Positions 3,327 to 12,400 of a stretch of 64,000 nucleotides of DNA are shown piece by piece (position 1 is the first letter of the stretch; every line of letters starts with the position of its first letter). Source of the DNA: Callorhinchus milii (lineage: Eukaryota); contig NW_024704742.1 in NCBI RefSeq assembly GCF_018977255.1, positions 85,314,001 through 85,378,000 of the forward strand, read 5' to 3'. The translations under genes and the position numbers were made by a program. Under the pieces are notes generated by a model. The model was not told the DNA's origin and searched no databases. It was given only the letters and a program-made list of their open reading frames with translations.

Positions 3327-3459
3327 GTCTAGAAATGGCTTGGATCCGGAGACCTCCAGAGAAAGTCCTCAGTGGTGAAGAATTTAATGTGACATATTCA
3401 GTTACTGTGACAGATCATTTTTACTATTGGGCTGTGGAGAACAGAATGCTCTTGCACAT
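3327..3459 (+). CDS. Guanylyl cyclase exon, ectodomain ([26 protein letters not shown]...MLLH)
   Basis: ttctag acceptor and gtaggt donor; phase 2 end matches exon 7798; NVT sequon. Confidence 0.8.
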
Positions 3460-6400
3460 GTAGGTATTGCATTTCTATTGCAGATACATGTCACCACATT
3501 TGGCGCTAACTGCTTCCTGATACATTAGTGGGCTGCCAGAGGAAACATAACAGGAGGCAGCTCATTTTACTGCTTGGTCAAGTGCTACATTATGGTTGAG
3601 ATAGCTGAACTTCAAATACCTATAATAGAAGGTGTAAATCTCTGTGATGGAGGAGAGAAGGCTTGGAATGATGGTAAGAGATGCTGTGGAGATTTGGAGC
3701 ATTAGGATGCATTTTAGGATGTACAATATGTATTTGGAGATGACATTTGATGTGATGGAAGAGAGGGTATATTTCAGCCATGGACACGATTGCCTGGATA
3801 AAGCGAAAGATTACGCACATCGGTTGTGGCAGAATCAGAGAGGAGATCATAGTAGTGTTTGGTGCTGGATCAGGAATGGAGACTATGGGAAGTGCTGATG
3901 TATAACAACAACAACAACAACAATGCCAGATGGCGTCTCAGAGTGGTTCACATTAACGGATCCCAGGGCCGAGCCAAGGGGAGGGGGAGGAAGGTGACCA
4001 AAGGCGCGGTCAAAAAGAAAGGTCTTCAGCCGAGACCTGAAAGTGGGAAGAGAGGGGACGAGGCGAAGGGAGTGAGGAAGGGAGTTCCAGAGCCTCAGGC
4101 ATAGTGGCTGAAGGCACGGCCGGCAATGGTGGAGTGGAGGACTTGGGGGACAAAGAGGAGGCCAGTCCCAGTGGAGTAAAGGCAATGGGCACTGTTGTGA
4201 GGAGAGAGGAGGTCAGAGAGGTAGGGGGGTGCAGAGGAATGGAGGGATTTGAATACAAGGGTGAGGATATTGAAGTCAATCCTCTCTGGGACAGGCAGCC
4301 AGTGCAGTCTGGCAAGGACTGCGGTGATCGGGGAGCAGAGTTTGGTGCGGGCAAGAATGCAGGCGGCAGAGTTTTGTATGACCTGAATTTTATGAATGGT
4401 AGTGGAGGGGAGACCGGCGAGGAGGGCATTTGAATAGTCCAGCCGAGAGGTGACAAAGGCATGGACCAGGGTTTCAGCGGGTTTTGGAGTGAGGTATTGG
4501 CAGAGACGGGCGATGCGTCAGAGGTGGAAAAAAGTAGTACTGGTGAGAGACCGGATGTGGGGGAGGAAAGATAATTGGGGGTCAAACCTGACGCCTAGGT
4601 CGGGTAGGTGGAGGAGGTGAGAACCGTGAGATTTTAGATGTTGACAAGAGCCAAAGAGTATGGCTTCCATCTTGTCAAAGTTCAGCTGAAGGAAATTCGC
4701 GCTCATCCAGCTCCTGAAGTCTGACAGGCAGGCTGACAGAACATCAGGGGACTGGGGGTCGCAAAGAGAGGTGGAAAAATAGAGTTGGGTGTCGTCCGCA
4801 TACACGTGGAAGTGTACCCCATGTCTGCGGATGACATCCCCAAGAGGGAGCATGTAGATCAGAAAGAGGAGGGGGCCAAGGATGGATCCTTGGAGTACCC
4901 CACAGGTAATCGGGTGAGAGCGGGAGGAAAAGCCGTTGGTGCAGATGTACTGCTGGCGGTTCGTCGAACCAGGCGAGTGCGGTCCCACTGAGGTGGATGA
5001 TGGAGGAAAGGCGGTGGAGAAGGATAGCGTGATTGACTGTGTTGAAAGTGGCAGAGAGGTCCAGGAGGACAAGGAGGCAGAGGGAGCCCTGGTCACAGAT
5101 AGAGAGGATATCATTTGAGACTTTCACAAGCGCAGTCTCTGTATTGTGGACAGGGCGGAAACCGGACTGGAGGGGTTCGAAGAGGGAGTGGGAGGAGAGG
5201 TGTGCAACAACGTGTTGATTGGCAACAACGTGTTCTAGGACTTTTGCGAGGAAGGGCAGGTTAGAAATGGGGTAGTAGTGGCTGGGGTTTGAGGGATCTA
5301 GGGAAGGTTTTTTGAGGAGGGGGTTGATGACAGCAGTTTTGAGGGGGGCAGGGACTGATCCGGAGGAGAGGGACTGGTTGATGACATCAGCCAGTAGTGG
5401 GCAGAGGAGGGGGAGCTGGGTGACCAGCAAGTTGGTGGGGAGGGGTTCGAGGCAGCAGGTGGTGGGTTTTATTGAGGTGATGGTGGGTGAGAGGGAGGAA
5501 GAAGAGAATGGGGAGGAAGGAATGTAGGATGGGGGTGATGGTAGGAGCTGATGATGGGGAGGGTGAGGGGGATGGAGAGGGCGTGGTGGTGGGTGACAAG
5601 AGGCAGGTGGATGAGGCTGCCTGGCGGATGTTGTGTATTTTGGATGAAAAGAAGTCCATGACCTCCTCGCACTTGGTATTGGATGTAAAGATTGAGGAGG
5701 CCTGAGGGGGCACACGGAGGAGGTAGTGGGTGGTGGAAAAAAGGATTTTAGCGTTGTGTTTAGCCTCCAAGATGATGTTGGAGTAGAAGGCCGTTTTTGC
5801 GCGTGTCAAAGAACGACGGTAGCTGTGGAGATGCTCGAGCCACAGTTGGCGGTGGACTGTCAGGCCAGTTTTCTGCCATCTGCGCTCAAGCATCCGGGTT
5901 TGGGTTATTAGGGATTGGAGATGGTTGTTGTACCAGGGGGATCGAGTGGGTTTGGAGATGGTCCTGGATTTCAGGGGAACGAGGGAGTTGAAGATGGAGG
6001 AGAGGCGATCATGGAGCAGCTGGACGGCTGCTTCAGGATCTCCAGGGGTGGAAGGCCAGAGGGATAGGATATTTGAGGTTGTGAGGCCCTTTGTGAGGGT
6101 TTCAGGGGGTAGCCTTTTCCATGGGCGGTAGAGAATGGTTGAGGGCTTGGTGGAGGAGAGAGGGATGTGAGAGGAGAAGGAGATGAGGAAGTGGTCCGAG
6201 ATGGCCTTGTCCACTATGCTGAGGTCGGAAATGTCAAGGTCATGGGTGATAACAAGGTCGAGGGCCTGACCACGGTTGTGGGTCAGTGAATTTATGTGAA
6301 GGGTGAGGTTTAGGGAGAAGAGGAGGGCAGTGAAGTCGGAAGACGTGGTGCAGGGGAGATTAGGTGTAGGTTGAAATTGCCCATTATGAGCAGGCGATCG

Positions 6401-9400: not shown

Positions 9401-12400
9401 GAGGGTAATAATCACTTAAAAACAAATAATAATTTGGTCACTCAGCGCACGACTGATTGTGAGACATTGCTGTGTGCAATTGGCTGCCGCTTTTCGCCCA
9501 CAAAATATATAGTCAATTCACTTCACAGTATATTTTCTGAAGTGCTTTGAGATATCTCAATGACAAGGAGCCCTGTTGCTCAGTTGTTAAAGCACTCGTC
9601 TTGCAAGCGAGACACCTGGGTTCAATTCCAGGCAGGGCGAAACCTTGAGCAAGTTTCCTTACTCCACACGCCTAATAATAATCCCCCCAAAACAAAACAA
9701 TAATAATTTGGTCATTTTCAATCTACGACTGTTTGTGGGACACTGCTGTTTGCAATTGGCTGCTGTGTTTCGCCCACAAATATACGGTCAATTCACTTTA
9801 CAGTATATTCTGTGAAGCGCTTTGAGACGTCTAGAAGACGTGAAAAGCGCTATACCAAATGCAAGGATTATTATTATTAATATGATAAGGAGCTATATCA
9901 AATAGAAGGATTATTATTATTATAACCTTTCCTTGGTGAATAGGCAGGAATGTAAAGCACAGTGTAAAGCTTGGAGATAAGCAGGGCAACTCAAAAGTGA
10001 TCTGAACTTGAGTTTGGGGGTAGTGGTAGTTTGGGGGGAAACAAAGATGGGAGAAGAAGAAACACCTTTTAAAAAGCAAATCTGCAGATACTGTAGTTGT
10101 ATGTTTCAATTATTAGCACATTTAGAAACATGCTGGTTTTGTTTTCGTGTTTTCTGACTGTAGGTTGTTCTTGTACATCTTGGCGTGACTTCCTTAATAG
10201 CTCACATAAAGGTGGGACACATGCAAGCTGCCCTGGAAGCCAAAACCACTGTCTTACCAGCAAAAGGTAAGTGACAACAAATTATATGCAATAAGAGATC
10301 TTGTCGTAGAAAGCTAAGGACAGAATACTCACTGAGGACAGAGAGTCACTCCACTCAGCTCCTGTTAACCCTGCAAGCCAAAGCCCCAGCATGTAGGGTG
10401 GTCCTAGCTGGACAAGCAGCGGGAAAACTGCCAGACAGCGCTAACAATGGTAAGCTATGTGGTTTTATCTGGTTGTACTTGAGCAGTACTCTGGGGTCCC
10501 CAAGCCCTGATTCTTGCCAACCTGTGCCTAATACTGTCCAGAATTAGATAAGCAGGATGTGTCCCTCCAGGGAGAGAGTGTGCATTCCATTCCAACAATC
10601 TATCTCTGGGATTTCCACGTGTATTGAATTCTCAGTTTGGTTTGGATACTCTTAAGTGTTGTTGGGTTTCCGCATCTGTCAGACACCCAGCTGACCAAAA
10701 AAATAAATCCTAGATAGCTTCAGTGGGATCTCATATCCCATTAAATGGGGTATATTTGGTATGAAAAATTTAAAATTTGGTAAAAGTGATTTTGCCAGTG
10801 ACTGGAAGTGCGCTACACAGAGTTTGGTGATCTCATCTCTGTTGCACCCAGAAAAAGACAGCAGAATTCTTGTGGATCAAGGTTCTGCGCAGGAATTGCG
10901 ATTAATGAAGCCAATCAATGAACTCTGTGCTTTTTCTTGGCCTCAACATTATCGTGTGAATTGTTCCTTTTCCACTATAGTAATTTAAAAGTTTTTAAAG
11001 ATCAATGTAAACAATGACTCGCATCAAAAACATTGACTGCTTAAGGGTTCAGTGTTAACATTCCCATGTCACCAGTCAATCCACTTTATAACACATCCTG
11101 CGATTTTGAGATGTTCCAATGATGTGATATTATTATTATCAAGAAAACCTCACCCCCCACCCCCCCGGATTTCTATTGTTTTTTGAGCATCTTTTTCTTC
11201 TCGTGTGGAGTGTGTGGAGATGACAGCTGTGATGAAGATGAGTCGTGCTCCACCTGCCCAGCAGACTGTGGCGAGTGCACAGCAACCATCAAAATGGCCA
11301 TCAGCTTCCCCATCTCCCTGGTCTGTGTCGGCTTCATCCTCACTGTAGTGGTACGTGTCCCACCTTGCTTCCCAGCAAACCTCACATCCTTCTGCAAAGC
11401 CATAATAATAAAATAATAATAATCCTTGTATTTGATACAACCACTTTAAATTAAAGCACCTTAAAACACAGGTGTACTCTGTACTCTCTCTCCATGTATT
11501 TGTAGACAAATGCAGCAGCTATTATTGGATTTTTCAGTTAGTGCCATGGCTTTTTTAATGTCCCCTAAAGACGCAATTGGGATCTTAGTTTAATGTCTTC
11601 TGCAAAAGATGGTAATTTTAATAATGCAGTACACGCCCAGCACTGCACCTCAGTGGCAGCATAGACTGGTAACCTAAGACCTTCTGTTGGCCTTGAACCC
11701 ACAACCTTCTGACTCAGAGGCAACAGTGCTATCACTCAGCCAGGCTGACACTAAGTTATCTGCCAATGCAATAACTATGTAATGAATCAAAACACACTGA
11801 TGCAACCTCTCCTTTTATTTTAATCACAGTGGTTTCAGTACCAGAAGCAAAAAATGTTGTGGGATGAAAGTTGGATTATCAACTTCAATCAAATTAAACA
11901 AGGTGTGTGTGTCATTTATTGCATTTTGGCAGTACAGTATCACTCAGCTCTACTAGCTCCCCATCTCCCAATGGATTGAATTCAAATCTCCATCCTCACC
12001 TTCAAATCACTCCATGACCTTGTCCCTCTCTACCTCCCGGCCTCCTGAACACTCACCCACCCATCCCCTTAGGTAACATTAACCTGTTACATGTGGACGG
12101 GATTTCAGCCTTTCCGCCCCCGCTCTCCCCTCAACTATAATCCTTACATTTGTTAATAATAATAATAAAATAATCCTTGCACTTGATGTAGCGCTTTTCA
12201 AGTCTTCGAGACGTCTCAAAGCACTTCACAGAATATGCTGTAAAGTGAATTGACCGTATATTTGTGGGCGAAACGCAGCAGCCAATTGCAAACAGCAGTG
12301 TTCCACAAACAGTCGTGGATTGAAAATGGCCAATTTATTATTGTTTTGTTTTGGAGGGATTATTATTAGGCGTGTGGAGTAAGGAAACTTGCCCAAGGTT

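What the first reader, a model, noticed from the sequence alone, without database searches (positions are those of the whole stretch)
3327..11350. Receptor guanylyl cyclase with a non-canonical, half-size ectodomain: a candidate orphan cGMP signalling system
Seen in the sequence: five exons before and including the TM exon splice in phase with a complete KHD-coiled coil-cyclase module. They encode only about 183 aa of ectodomain with 12 Cys (including [11 protein letters not shown]), three N-glycosylation sequons (NVT, NAS, NWT) and beta-strand-like patterns ([24 protein letters not shown]). All catalytic residues are intact: two Asp, the GTP-specifying Glu and Cys, and Asn/Arg. Established knowledge: NPR1, NPR2 and GUCY2C/D/F/G carry a roughly 450-aa ANF-receptor (periplasmic-binding-protein-like) ectodomain, which I cannot recognise here. 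Inference: this is an active cyclase sensing a different, unknown ligand through an Ig-like plus disulfide-rich domain. From memory and unverified, medaka OlGC8 is an orphan membrane GC with a similarly short ectodomain. An orthologue in a cartilaginous fish would make this an ancient gnathostome receptor class with no counterpart among the known mammalian GC-A to GC-G receptors.
Basis: partly seen in the sequence, partly recalled or inferred. Interest (0 to 1): 0.78.

Follow-up and report, generated by a model that had tools for sequence, protein, structure and literature searches.

The report
Orphan guanylyl cyclase with unnamed ectodomain
This elephant-shark gene encodes a cGMP-making membrane receptor whose outer sensing part is not the usual hormone-binding domain but a very strongly conserved, unnamed domain found from single-celled relatives of animals to marsupials, and not seen in placental mammals.

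Summary
The five exons at 3327-11350 are real, in phase, and spliced to a complete kinase-homology, coiled-coil and cyclase module. The gene has 21 coding exons in the window and two more 0.8-1.4 kb upstream; all 22 introns are GT-AG. The window matches a 904-aa predicted Callorhinchus milii protein named "ANP receptor 1-like". The upstream exons add only a signal peptide and 27 conserved residues, not an ANF-receptor domain. The roughly 210-aa ectodomain has no Pfam family and no solved relative by sequence. It is predicted (pLDDT 84.8) as an Ig/FN3-like beta-sandwich followed by a six-cysteine module. It is highly conserved: 71% identity between lamprey and elephant shark, as high as or higher than the kinase-homology domain. 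A His/Asn cluster is intact in 159 of 164 sequences. Proteins with this ectodomain occur in lamprey, sharks, bony fishes, amphibians, reptiles, birds, monotremes and marsupials, with no placental among those listed. They also occur in echinoderms, molluscs, a tapeworm and an ichthyosporean, and the domain appears on other receptor types in unnamed metagenome proteins. Gnathostomes have two ancient paralogues. The ligand is unknown; I favour a small invariant ligand or metal ion. None of ten literature searches found a description.

The parts
3327..3459 (+). Coding exon 3 (aa 54-98): first beta-strands of the ectodomain, NVT sequon
   Evidence: Exact match to P0001; acceptor AG and donor GT, with a unique in-phase solution. 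The acceptor shows that it is not the first exon.
7798..7921 (+). Coding exon 4 (aa 98-139): helix plus the CC-x-H-H-x-N-x-H-S-C strand, core of the conserved His/Asn cluster
   Evidence: Alone it finds 27 relatives at 73-100% identity.
9016..9120 (+). Coding exon 5 (aa 140-174): C-G-P-W-I-P-D-D-G and T-H-T motifs, conserved NWT
   Evidence: conservation.
10164..10266 (+). Coding exon 6 (aa 175-209): last two long beta-strands, including I-A-H (His162 of the ectodomain numbering)
11211..11350 (+). Coding exon 7 (aa 209-255): six-Cys juxtamembrane module and the transmembrane helix
   Evidence: A 20-residue hydrophobic stretch is followed by basic residues (read from the sequence). The six-Cys module recurs as 6-24 tandem copies in unrelated proteins.
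11830..11902 (+). Coding exon 8: intracellular juxtamembrane segment
12704..12851 (+). Coding exon 9: Ser/Thr-rich juxtamembrane segment before the kinase-homology domain
17465..17551 (+). Coding exon 10: start of the kinase-homology domain (V-A-x-K)
   Evidence: Pfam on P0001, residues 330-568.
20738..20881 (+). Coding exon 11: kinase-homology domain
   Evidence: PK_Tyr_Ser-Thr, E 6.4e-07 on the ORF.
22143..22264 (+). Coding exon 12: kinase-homology domain, H-G-R-L-K in place of H-R-D (no catalytic Asp)
   Evidence: PK_Tyr_Ser-Thr, E 1e-05; aligned with H-G-N-L-K of NPR1.
22354..22495 (+). Coding exon 13: kinase-homology domain
23916..23964 (+). Coding exon 14: kinase-homology domain
25705..25809 (+). 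Coding exon 15: kinase-homology domain insert
26217..26336 (+). Coding exon 16: end of the kinase-homology domain
27480..27573 (+). Coding exon 17: coiled-coil dimerisation segment
   Evidence: HNOBA, residues 586-627 of P0001.
28899..28986 (+). Coding exon 18: linker and start of the cyclase domain; one residue differs from P0001 (Ser in the window, Ala at aa 639)
29993..30132 (+). Coding exon 19: cyclase domain, first metal Asp, GTP-specifying Glu and second metal Asp
   Evidence: Guanylate_cyc, E 8.3e-16 on the ORF; alignment to NPR1.
31480..31632 (+). Coding exon 20: cyclase domain
   Evidence: Guanylate_cyc, E 5.2e-08.
32382..32480 (+). Coding exon 21: cyclase domain, Arg, GTP-specifying Cys, Asn and Arg
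   Evidence: Guanylate_cyc, E 1.3e-14; identical to NPR1 over this stretch.
34089..34180 (+). Coding exon 22: end of the cyclase domain
35135..35428 (+). Coding exon 23: last cyclase strand, an 85-residue poorly conserved tail with T-P-V-N-like repeats, and the TAA stop at 35426-35428
   Evidence: tail identity to orthologues is 9-38%.

Best explanation
This is an intact, single-pass receptor guanylyl cyclase gene of the elephant shark with 23 coding exons, 21 of them in the window.

Inside the cell it is built like the natriuretic-peptide receptors: a Ser/Thr-rich juxtamembrane segment, a pseudokinase (kinase-homology) domain, a coiled coil and a GTP-specific class III cyclase domain. By analogy it must pair with a second chain to form active sites that make cGMP.

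Outside it carries a different sensor of about 210 residues: an Ig/FN3-like beta-sandwich stapled by disulfides, followed by a six-Cys module directly before the membrane. This domain has no Pfam family and no sequence-detectable solved relative.

What is shown here: the gene structure, the domain make-up, the intact catalytic residues, the conservation and the distribution.

What is inferred: the ectodomain binds an extracellular cue, and the signal passes through the membrane helix and pseudokinase to switch the cyclase, as in GC-A.

My best guess for the cue, at about 40%, is a small, chemically invariant ligand, such as a metal ion, protons or a small metabolite. It would be held by the conserved His102/Asn104/His106/His132/His162 cluster rather than being a fast-evolving peptide hormone.
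For: Gene model:
- Residue-for-residue match to P0001, with one mismatch.
- All 22 of 22 introns are GT-AG with unique in-phase solutions.

Intracellular module:
- Pfam finds Guanylate_cyc (226.7 bits), PK_Tyr_Ser-Thr (122.4 bits) and HNOBA (28 bits).
- Residues 233-822 align with human NPR1 at 483 bits, against 345 bits for GC-C, and the catalytic stretches are conserved.

Ectodomain is not the ANF type: and the Pfam columns.

Fold:
- AlphaFold2 on 25 sequences gives pLDDT 84.8 and pTM 0.77, mostly strands.
- The best matches are Ig/FN3-like sandwiches: Z 8.5, rmsd 2.6 A over 95 residues for 7xdi_E.

Constraint on the ectodomain:
- Mean column identity is 81% over 10 vertebrates.
- Ectodomain versus kinase-homology-domain identity to the shark protein is 71% vs 56% for lamprey and 73% vs 50% for the paralogue.
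- As a rough control, an NPR-like ectodomain exon of the same genome is about 46% identical to rat NPR1 over 185 columns. This is my hand count, and orthology is not established.

Conserved cluster:
- H-N-H-H-H is intact in 159 of 164 sequences.
- His102, His132 and His162 are lost together in two caenogastropod proteins that keep Asn104 and His106.
- Positions 102, 104 and 106 lie on one predicted strand (100-109), so they would face the same side, and 162 lies on strand 155-165.

Age and modularity:
- The same domain is fused to a cyclase in starfish, limpets, snails, bivalves, a tapeworm and an ichthyosporean.
- It is fused to a 7tm_3 receptor plus G-alpha, to ephrin-receptor-like repeats, or to Sushi plus HRM in other proteins.
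Against: - No experiment or transcript was seen here. The RNA attempt gave no exon junctions.
- The 904-aa protein is a computer-predicted model.
- I had no atomic coordinates, so whether the conserved histidines actually lie next to each other is not shown.
- Most of the 164 sequences are related vertebrates, so 159 of 164 overstates independent support.
- The joint loss of three histidines may be a single event in one snail lineage.
- Structural matches to copper-binding sandwiches (PmoD, AA10 LPMOs) are weak, with TM-score at or below 0.36, and none is among the 50 best of the wider search.
- An equally conserved protein ligand would also explain the strong constraint.
- The retinal cyclases show that a receptor-type cyclase can be regulated entirely from the inside.
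Confidence: 0.8

Rival explanations
1. This is a hormone-type receptor. The ectodomain binds a secreted peptide or protein that is itself strongly conserved, and the receptor works like GC-A or GC-C but with an unknown ligand family.
For: The intracellular module is closest to NPR1 among solved structures (483 bits), and all characterised relatives of that type with known extracellular ligands bind peptides (established knowledge). Ig/FN3-like sandwiches are common protein-binding modules (matches). Two ancient paralogues could reflect two ligands.
Against: Ectodomain conservation equals or exceeds that of the kinase-homology domain. It is higher than my rough control for a peptide-binding NPR ectodomain (about 46%, hand count). 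The domain also occurs in an ichthyosporean and in unnamed metagenome proteins fused to a 7TM receptor plus G-alpha, where an animal hormone is unlikely. The conserved residues are His, Asn and Asp types, typical of ion or small-molecule sites.
Confidence: 0.25
2. The ectodomain is not a ligand sensor. It serves folding, dimerisation, sorting or adhesion, and the cyclase is controlled from inside the cell (by calcium-sensor proteins, bicarbonate, temperature or phosphorylation), as in the retinal cyclases, GC-D or GC-G.
For: Retinal GC-E/F have an ectodomain with no known ligand. A paper on phototransduction notes that in rods this domain is intradiscal (PMC6170504, passage seen). The Ser/Thr-rich juxtamembrane stretch (window 12704-12851) could be a phosphorylation switch.
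Against: A domain without a specific binding role would not be expected to keep 71% identity from lamprey to shark, with an invariant polar His/Asn cluster. Nor would it be expected to be reused as the outer module of other receptor types.
Confidence: 0.13
3. The short ectodomain is an artefact of the window edge or of gene modelling, and a canonical ANF-receptor ectodomain is encoded further upstream. This was my own first suspicion, because exon 3327 starts at a splice acceptor.
For: Exon 3327-3459 begins at an acceptor site, and the window starts only 3.3 kb upstream.
Against: The two missing exons were found 0.8-1.4 kb upstream, and they encode only a signal peptide plus 27 conserved residues. 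Many of the 27 orthologue models printed start with a hydrophobic leader directly before the same W-H-D-L-D-N motif; others are cut or begin with longer, unrelated N-termini. In the whole-genome ANF_receptor search, none of 125 matches lies near C1:85.3 Mb; the nearest matches on that contig are at 128.9 Mb (only 106 of 201 candidates were scored).
Confidence: 0.01

Closest known systems
Natriuretic peptide receptor 1 / guanylyl cyclase A (human NPR1, e.g. PDB 9bcv, 9bcl)
   Same: The layout from the membrane inward is the same: one transmembrane helix, a juxtamembrane Ser/Thr-rich stretch, a pseudokinase lacking the catalytic Asp, a coiled coil, and a GTP-specific cyclase. Residues 233-822 align with NPR1 438-1024 at 483 bits, the best of all solved chains. 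Automatic annotation therefore names the family 'ANP receptor 1/2-like'.
   Different: The whole ectodomain differs. NPR1 has about 440 residues before the membrane, and the alignment starts only at the transmembrane helix. Here there are about 210 residues of beta-sandwich plus a six-Cys module, with no ANF_receptor match.
Guanylyl cyclase C (GUCY2C, PDB 8fx4) and the sensory cyclases GC-D/E/F/G
   Same: Kinase-homology plus cyclase architecture; GC-C scores 345 bits over residues 328-825.
   Different: They are more distant than NPR1, and they carry ANF-receptor-type ectodomains (established knowledge; not re-tested here for D-G).
Cyclases recalled as lacking or shortening the ectodomain: insect MsGC-I, rat ksGC, medaka OlGC8
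   Same: They are said to be membrane or kinase-homology cyclases without a full ANF-type ectodomain. This is recalled from memory; only the title of an MsGC-I paper was seen, in a reference list.
   Different: Those are described as truncations, whereas here a different, strongly conserved domain takes the place. Whether OlGC8 is the medaka member of this family could not be tested: 0 papers hold the name, and no sequence was available.
Copper-binding beta-sandwiches (PmoD, AA10 lytic polysaccharide monooxygenases)
   Same: They are Ig-like sandwiches with histidine metal sites. They appear among the Foldseek matches at E 4e-04 to 2e-03.
   Different: TM-scores are only 0.27-0.36 at 7-10% identity. 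None is among the 50 best rows of the wider structural search. This is a resemblance of general shape only.

Membership tests
Receptor (membrane) guanylyl cyclases | Class III cyclase catalytic domain | tested here: met
   PF00211 at 226.7 bits, profile positions 2-183 of 183, on P0001; three window exons match it on their own.
Receptor (membrane) guanylyl cyclases | GTP-specifying Glu and Cys, and the metal-binding Asp pair, Arg and Asn | tested here: met
   In the alignment to human NPR1 the stretches holding these residues are identical or nearly so. The residue roles are established knowledge.
Receptor (membrane) guanylyl cyclases | Kinase-homology (pseudokinase) domain and coiled-coil linker before the cyclase | tested here: met
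   PF07714 at 122.4 bits (residues 332-568) and PF07701 at 28 bits (586-627). H-G-R-L-K replaces H-R-D-L-K, aligned with H-G-N-L-K of NPR1.
Receptor (membrane) guanylyl cyclases | Signal peptide and a single transmembrane helix | tested here: inconclusive
   A hydrophobic N-terminus and one 20-residue hydrophobic stretch followed by basic residues can be read from the sequence. No dedicated predictor was run.
Receptor (membrane) guanylyl cyclases | cGMP synthesis, dimeric state | not testable with these tools
   An enzyme assay is needed. The complex predictor was not available.
GC-A to GC-G / natriuretic-peptide-receptor type (ANF-receptor ectodomain) | Extracellular ANF_receptor (PF01094, periplasmic-binding-protein-like) domain of about 400 residues | tested here: not met
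   - 0 of 119 locus ORFs match at E <= 0.1.
- 0 of 3 full-length orthologues match at E <= 1.
- 0 of 25 ectodomains match at E <= 10.
- 0 of 27, 120 and 120 listed relatives carry it in the precomputed Pfam column.
- The ectodomain is only about 210 residues and is modelled as a beta-sandwich.
Copper or other metal-binding Ig-like sandwiches (LPMO, PmoD, CopC type) | Shared fold with a histidine metal site at equivalent positions | tested here: inconclusive
   Only weak Foldseek matches, TM-score at or below 0.36. No coordinates were available to compare the sites.
Any named extracellular domain family in Pfam | Significant profile match in the ectodomain | tested here: not met
   No family was matched by more than 1 of 25 ectodomains at E <= 10; the best single E was 0.01. 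The profile search against PDB sequences gave one hit at E 0.17.

The most novel reading that the evidence does not exclude
The ectodomain is a previously unnamed sensor domain, older than animals, for an extracellular ion or small molecule (for example Zn2+, Cu2+ or protons) held by a histidine cluster. On this reading the gene represents an eighth class of vertebrate membrane guanylyl cyclases, with two paralogues. These would couple that cue directly to cGMP in lampreys, fishes, amphibians, reptiles, birds, monotremes and marsupials, and the class would have been overlooked because placental mammals lost it.
Probability: 0.3. Interest if true: 0.9.

Novelty: new variant of a known kind. Interest (0 to 1): 0.72.

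Why it matters
[quoted passage not shown] The family found here does not fit any of the seven by its ectodomain.

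- It is present in most vertebrate lineages and is under very strong constraint, yet databases hide it under the name "ANP receptor 1/2-like".
- If it is a working receptor, most vertebrates have a cGMP input pathway with an unknown stimulus that mouse and human studies could never have revealed.
- Its apparent loss in placentals would be a datable event.
- The domain is also a new module for receptor evolution. The same outer part is joined to a cyclase in an ichthyosporean and to a 7TM receptor plus G-alpha fusion in another, unnamed metagenome protein.
- This pushes the cyclase-coupled form of this receptor back before animals. A 2006 survey concluded that animal receptor cyclases arose after the split from protists (PMC1435932; passage seen).
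- The question is directly testable with orthologues from chicken, Xenopus, zebrafish or opossum.

Tried and rejected
- **RNA evidence.** No RNA holder was listed for the last exon. Contigs of four runs guessed to be RNA were laid on window 3000-22600, but repeats swamped them and none of the 15 joints shown (933 more were not shown) matches an exon-exon junction of this gene. This says nothing about expression.
- **Complex prediction.** A job for two copies of the ectodomain was not available, so nothing can be said about ectodomain dimers.
- **ESM Atlas.** No usable hit for the shark ectodomain or for the ectodomain region of the 7TM fusion protein.
- **Structure searches.**
  - Foldseek against PDB gave only weak matches: complement MG domains, PmoD, AA10 LPMOs and superoxide reductase, with TM-score at or below 0.36.
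  - The wide VIA search gave Z at or below 8.5, in the range the tool reports for models without a clear relative.
  - No ANF-receptor, LPMO or other specific family stands out. That absence does not prove a new fold.
  - The six-Cys module was not folded alone, so I make no claim about its fold.
- **PDB sequence search with the ectodomain profile.** One hit at E 0.17.
- **Earlier findings of this scan.** Nothing near the locus, nothing by sequence, nothing relevant by words.
  - 'OlGC8': 0 papers.
  - 'OlGC': 28 papers, the 20 listed all unrelated.
  - Short-extracellular-domain search: 3 pharmacology guides.
  - 'Lost in mammals/placentals' combinations: 0 papers.
  - 'GC-H' with 'GC-G': 0 papers.
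  - Ichthyosporea search: 1 unrelated paper.
  - Medaka search: 1 paper on phototransduction.
  - Marsupial/eutherian search: 5 papers, none on this family judging by titles, abstract starts and the passages read from two of them.
  - 'Lacks the extracellular' search: 2 papers, one read in passages.
  - Subscription journals such as Zoological Science are not in the library, so a description there would have been missed.
- **Phylogeny with the canonical cyclases.** The capped searches returned only members of this family, and no canonical sequences could be stored. Bit scores against solved structures stand in for it.
- **My initial idea of a window-edge artefact** was rejected.

Full report
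**1. What is in the sequence**

The window is G000:C1:85314001-85378000 of a 991.5-Mb genome.

Reading the DNA shows that the 3327 exon starts at a polypyrimidine tract and AG acceptor. It is therefore not a first exon, and at that point I suspected a window-edge artefact.

Pfam on 119 + strand stop-to-stop translations of the locus gave these matches:
- Kinase-homology domain in two ORFs (20682-20897 and 22111-22296).
- Cyclase domain in three ORFs (29931-30158, 31296-31676 and 32321-32494).
- No ANF_receptor match in any of the 119 at E <= 0.1.

**2. The exons are real and the gene is complete**

The 41-residue translation of exon 7799-7921 was searched among longer proteins.
- It found 27 proteins among 28 candidates at 73-100% identity.
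- Of these, 26 of 27 carry PK_Tyr_Ser-Thr, Pkinase, HNOBA and Guanylate_cyc, and 0 of 27 carry PF01094.
- The 100% hit, P0001, is a 904-residue protein that a source names XP_007904816.1, "PREDICTED: atrial natriuretic peptide receptor 1-like", Callorhinchus milii.

P0001 maps residue for residue onto 21 exons of the window, with a single difference (Ser in the window, Ala at residue 639). Its first 53 residues are not in the window. They lie in two exons at L009:8579-8632 and L009:9113-9218, which is 1421-782 bases upstream of window base 1.

A script searched for exon borders that reproduce the protein. It found exactly one GT-AG solution for each of the 22 introns, 20 exact and 2 carrying the single mismatch. 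The stop codon TAA is at 35426-35428.

**3. The ectodomain is short and is not an ANF-receptor domain**

The upstream exons add only a hydrophobic leader and 27 conserved residues. Many of the 27 orthologue models printed likewise begin with a hydrophobic leader directly before the W-H-D-L-D-N motif; others are cut or have longer, unrelated N-termini.

The mature ectodomain is about 210 residues (27-235 of P0001) with 14 Cys that are invariant in 10 of 10 vertebrate sequences.

Evidence against any named domain:
- No Pfam family matches the ectodomain in three full-length orthologues (elephant shark, Xenopus, lamprey) at E <= 1.
- No family is matched by more than 1 of 25 ectodomains at E <= 10.
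- None of the best 120 of 408 relatives, nor of the best 120 of 393, carries PF01094.
- A whole-genome ANF_receptor search gave 125 matches, none near C1:85.3 Mb. Only 106 of 201 candidates were scored.
- A profile of 25 ectodomains found no solved relative by sequence; the one hit had E 0.17.

**4. Fold**

AlphaFold2 on the 25-sequence alignment gave mean pLDDT 84.8 and pTM 0.77.
- The model has nine strands of three or more residues and three helices.
- Regions 111-130 and 181-210 are of lower confidence.

Foldseek against PDB gave only weak matches, with TM-score normalised to the query at or below 0.36. They were complement MG domains, PmoD, AA10 LPMOs and superoxide reductase.

The wide VIA search of 48,161 chains gave 2 chains with Z >= 8. 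The best was 7xdi_E (Z 8.5, rmsd 2.6 A, 95 residues aligned), followed by SoxZ, alpha-2-macroglobulin, FN3 and Ig domains. The tool itself warns that such values are typical of models without a clear relative.

The six-Cys juxtamembrane module (profile positions 182-207) recurs in 6-24 matched stretches in many unrelated proteins. These include proteins with a lamin-tail domain, a PLD-like domain or an M14 peptidase domain.

**5. Intracellular module**

P0001 residues 233-822 align with human NPR1 residues 438-1024 at 483 bits, and GC-C follows at 345 bits. The alignment begins at the transmembrane helix.

In that alignment:
- The stretches with the two metal-binding Asp, the Glu and Cys that select GTP, and the Arg/Asn are identical or nearly identical.
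- The kinase-like domain has H-G-R-L-K where kinases have H-R-D-L-K, as NPR1 has H-G-N-L-K.

It is therefore a pseudokinase. The residue roles are established knowledge. Enzyme activity was not tested.

**6. Conservation**

Ten vertebrate ectodomains have a mean column identity of 81%.

By region, identity to the elephant-shark protein is:

| Compared protein | Ectodomain | Kinase-homology domain | Cyclase domain |
|---|---|---|---|
| Lamprey | 71% | 56% | 82% |
| Opossum | 70% | 73% | 83% |
| Stingray paralogue 2 | 73% | 50% | 76% |
| Starfish | 46% | 55% | 70% |
| Ichthyosporean | 32% | 30% | 40% |

As a rough control, I took the first ectodomain exon of a canonical NPR-like gene of the same genome (L024). 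It aligns with rat NPR1 at about 46% identity, 86 of 185 columns. This is my hand count on the alignment, and orthology is not established.

A cluster of polar residues stands out. His102, Asn104, His106, His132 and His162 (ectodomain numbering) are all present in 159 of 164 sequences that cover these columns. The exceptions are:
- Two Littorina proteins (P0058 and P0180, members of one 90% cluster) and one Nucella protein. These have lost His102, His132 and His162 together while keeping Asn104 and His106.
- The ichthyosporean protein, which has Ser at position 132.
- One bichir model with a disturbed exon.

Residues 102, 104 and 106 sit on predicted strand 100-109, so they would point to one face. 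Residue 162 sits on strand 155-165. I had no coordinates, so their closeness in space is an inference.

**7. Distribution**

Named relatives include the following:
- lamprey, many sharks and rays, sturgeon, gar, bichir and many teleosts;
- coelacanth, lungfish, frogs, a newt and a caecilian;
- turtles, crocodilians, tuatara, squamates and many birds;
- platypus and four marsupials (opossum, koala, agile gracile opossum and tammar wallaby).

With the opossum ectodomain as query, 4 of the best 120 hits are mammals. All four are marsupials or the monotreme, and none of the 120 is a placental. The next hits after the marsupials are turtle, tuatara and crocodilians at 85-86%. This argues for loss in placentals, but genomes were not searched directly.

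A profile search of 1.84 billion representatives gave 789 hits at E <= 0.001. Among the best 150, those checked were:
- **Cyclase-fused relatives.** Full kinase plus cyclase domains (Pfam) were seen in a starfish (Asterias), the snails Gigantopelta and Littorina, a tapeworm (Anoplocephala) and the ichthyosporean Chromosphaera perkinsii.
  - Models from a limpet (Patella) and the bivalve Mactra show the kinase-homology domain only.
  - The Tegillarca and Mya proteins are merely named guanylate cyclase or ANPRA-like by their sources.
- **Short models with no Pfam match or not scanned.** These come from a crinoid (Anneissia) and from Nucella.
- **Other architectures.**
  - Ectodomain plus 7tm_3 plus G-alpha (P0153).
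  - Ectodomain plus ephrin-receptor-like repeats (P0147, P0159).
  - Ectodomain plus Sushi plus HRM in a clam (P0054).

**8. Paralogues**

The elephant-shark genome holds a second copy on C5:16888054-16900371 (minus strand). It has the same ectodomain exon pattern, and its matches run through to the cyclase domain.

I built a maximum-likelihood tree of 54 proteins chosen from about 300 stored. The method was quick, with SH-aLRT support only, rooted on the ichthyosporean.
- One clade (support 96) contains the window gene, the other first copies of sharks and rays, ray-finned fishes, lungfish, one coelacanth copy and all the tetrapods sampled.
- A second clade (support 100) contains the second copies of sharks and rays, the other coelacanth copy and ray-finned fishes, but no tetrapod.
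- Lamprey joins the second clade (support 88).
- The invertebrate rows have long branches, and their order is unresolved.

The duplication therefore predates the split between cartilaginous and bony vertebrates.

**9. How it most likely works**

Shown: a complete single-pass protein with an outer conserved sandwich, a pseudokinase, a coiled coil and an intact GTP-type cyclase.

Inferred from GC-A (established knowledge): it acts as a dimer, and a change in the ectodomain is passed through the helix and pseudokinase to the cyclase pair, raising cGMP.

I lean to a small, chemically invariant cue, such as a metal ion, protons or a small metabolite (about 40%), over a peptide or protein ligand (about 25%) or a purely structural ectodomain (about 13%). 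Three observations drive this:
- the very strong constraint on the ectodomain;
- the His/Asn cluster and the joint loss of three histidines in one lineage;
- the reuse of the domain on other receptor types in unnamed, possibly microbial-eukaryote metagenome proteins.

**10. Comparison with what is known, and novelty**

It works like, and is related to, the natriuretic-peptide-receptor type of cyclase from the membrane inward. It fails the defining ectodomain feature of GC-A to GC-G.

A 2023 paper states in its abstract that seven membrane guanylyl cyclase subtypes have been characterised (PMC10061024; abstract and one passage seen). A 2006 survey describes the receptor architecture with one kind of extracellular binding domain and concludes that the animal families arose after the split from protists (PMC1435932; passages seen).

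None of my ten searches found a description of this family. The library lacks most subscription journals, and the OlGC8 recollection remains unverified.

The proteins exist in databases as automatic predictions under misleading names. I therefore rate this a new variant of a known kind: a receptor guanylyl cyclase with an unrecognised, ancient sensor domain.

**11. Limits**
- No transcript evidence was obtained.
- No tree with the canonical cyclases could be built.
- The claimed loss in placentals rests on protein databases, not on genome searches.

Noticed in passing
G000:C5:16888054-16900371 (minus strand), outside the window: A second, compact (about 12 kb) paralogue of this gene lies in the same genome. 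Five ectodomain exons match at 62-79% identity to the window's protein. Further matches run through the kinase-homology and cyclase exons at 53-89% identity to the stingray paralogue 2.
   Followed up: partly
window 11211-11290 (six-Cys module) and proteins P0061, P0067, P0151 and others: The juxtamembrane C-G-D-x-x-C...C-x-x-C-P-x-D-C-G-x-C module matches as 6-24 tandem copies in many unrelated proteins, for example with lamin-tail, PLD-like or M14 peptidase domains. No Pfam family was reported for it.
   Followed up: partly
proteins P0153, P0147, P0159, P0054 (not in the window): The same ectodomain is fused to other signalling modules. These are a class-C-type 7TM receptor plus a G-alpha subunit in one chain, ephrin-receptor-like Cys repeats, and Sushi plus hormone-receptor domain in a clam.
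   Followed up: partly
window 4000-7200 (minus strand), 18700-19850 (plus strand), 54787-55317 (plus strand), and the GC-rich, G-skewed segments at 4-8 kb and 48-52 kb: Reverse-transcriptase (RVT_1) remnants of LINE-like retroelements sit in the introns and downstream of the gene. The 4-8 kb and 48-52 kb segments share an unusual GC content (0.51-0.55) and strong GC skew.
   Followed up: partly
window 9540-10193, 12156-12809, 14118-15425: Short interspersed repeats in introns attract very high contig depth in all four runs laid. This is what swamped the attempt to see exon junctions.
   Followed up: no
window 35167-35403: The last exon encodes an 85-residue tail with T-P-V-N-like repeats. It is poorly conserved (9-38% identity to the compared relatives), and the other frame of the same DNA is also open and repetitive.
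   Followed up: no
window 28965-28967: The window encodes Ser where the database protein P0001 has Ala (residue 639). This is the only difference in the 851 residues (aa 54-904) that the window encodes, and is probably an allele or an assembly-version difference.
   Followed up: no
window 39118-40263 (plus strand): Two long adjacent open frames (157 and 224 aa, Pro/Ser/Gly-rich) lie downstream of the gene. They have no Pfam match, and what they are is unknown.
   Followed up: partly
L023 (G000:C15:16076200-16077500) and L024 (G000:C1:128961200-128962100): Canonical receptor cyclase genes of the same genome do carry large ANF-type first exons. L024's exon matches NPR1 ectodomain structures. L023's was not searched and looks retinal-cyclase-like from memory only. 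Both show that the genome also has the ordinary kind.
   Followed up: partly
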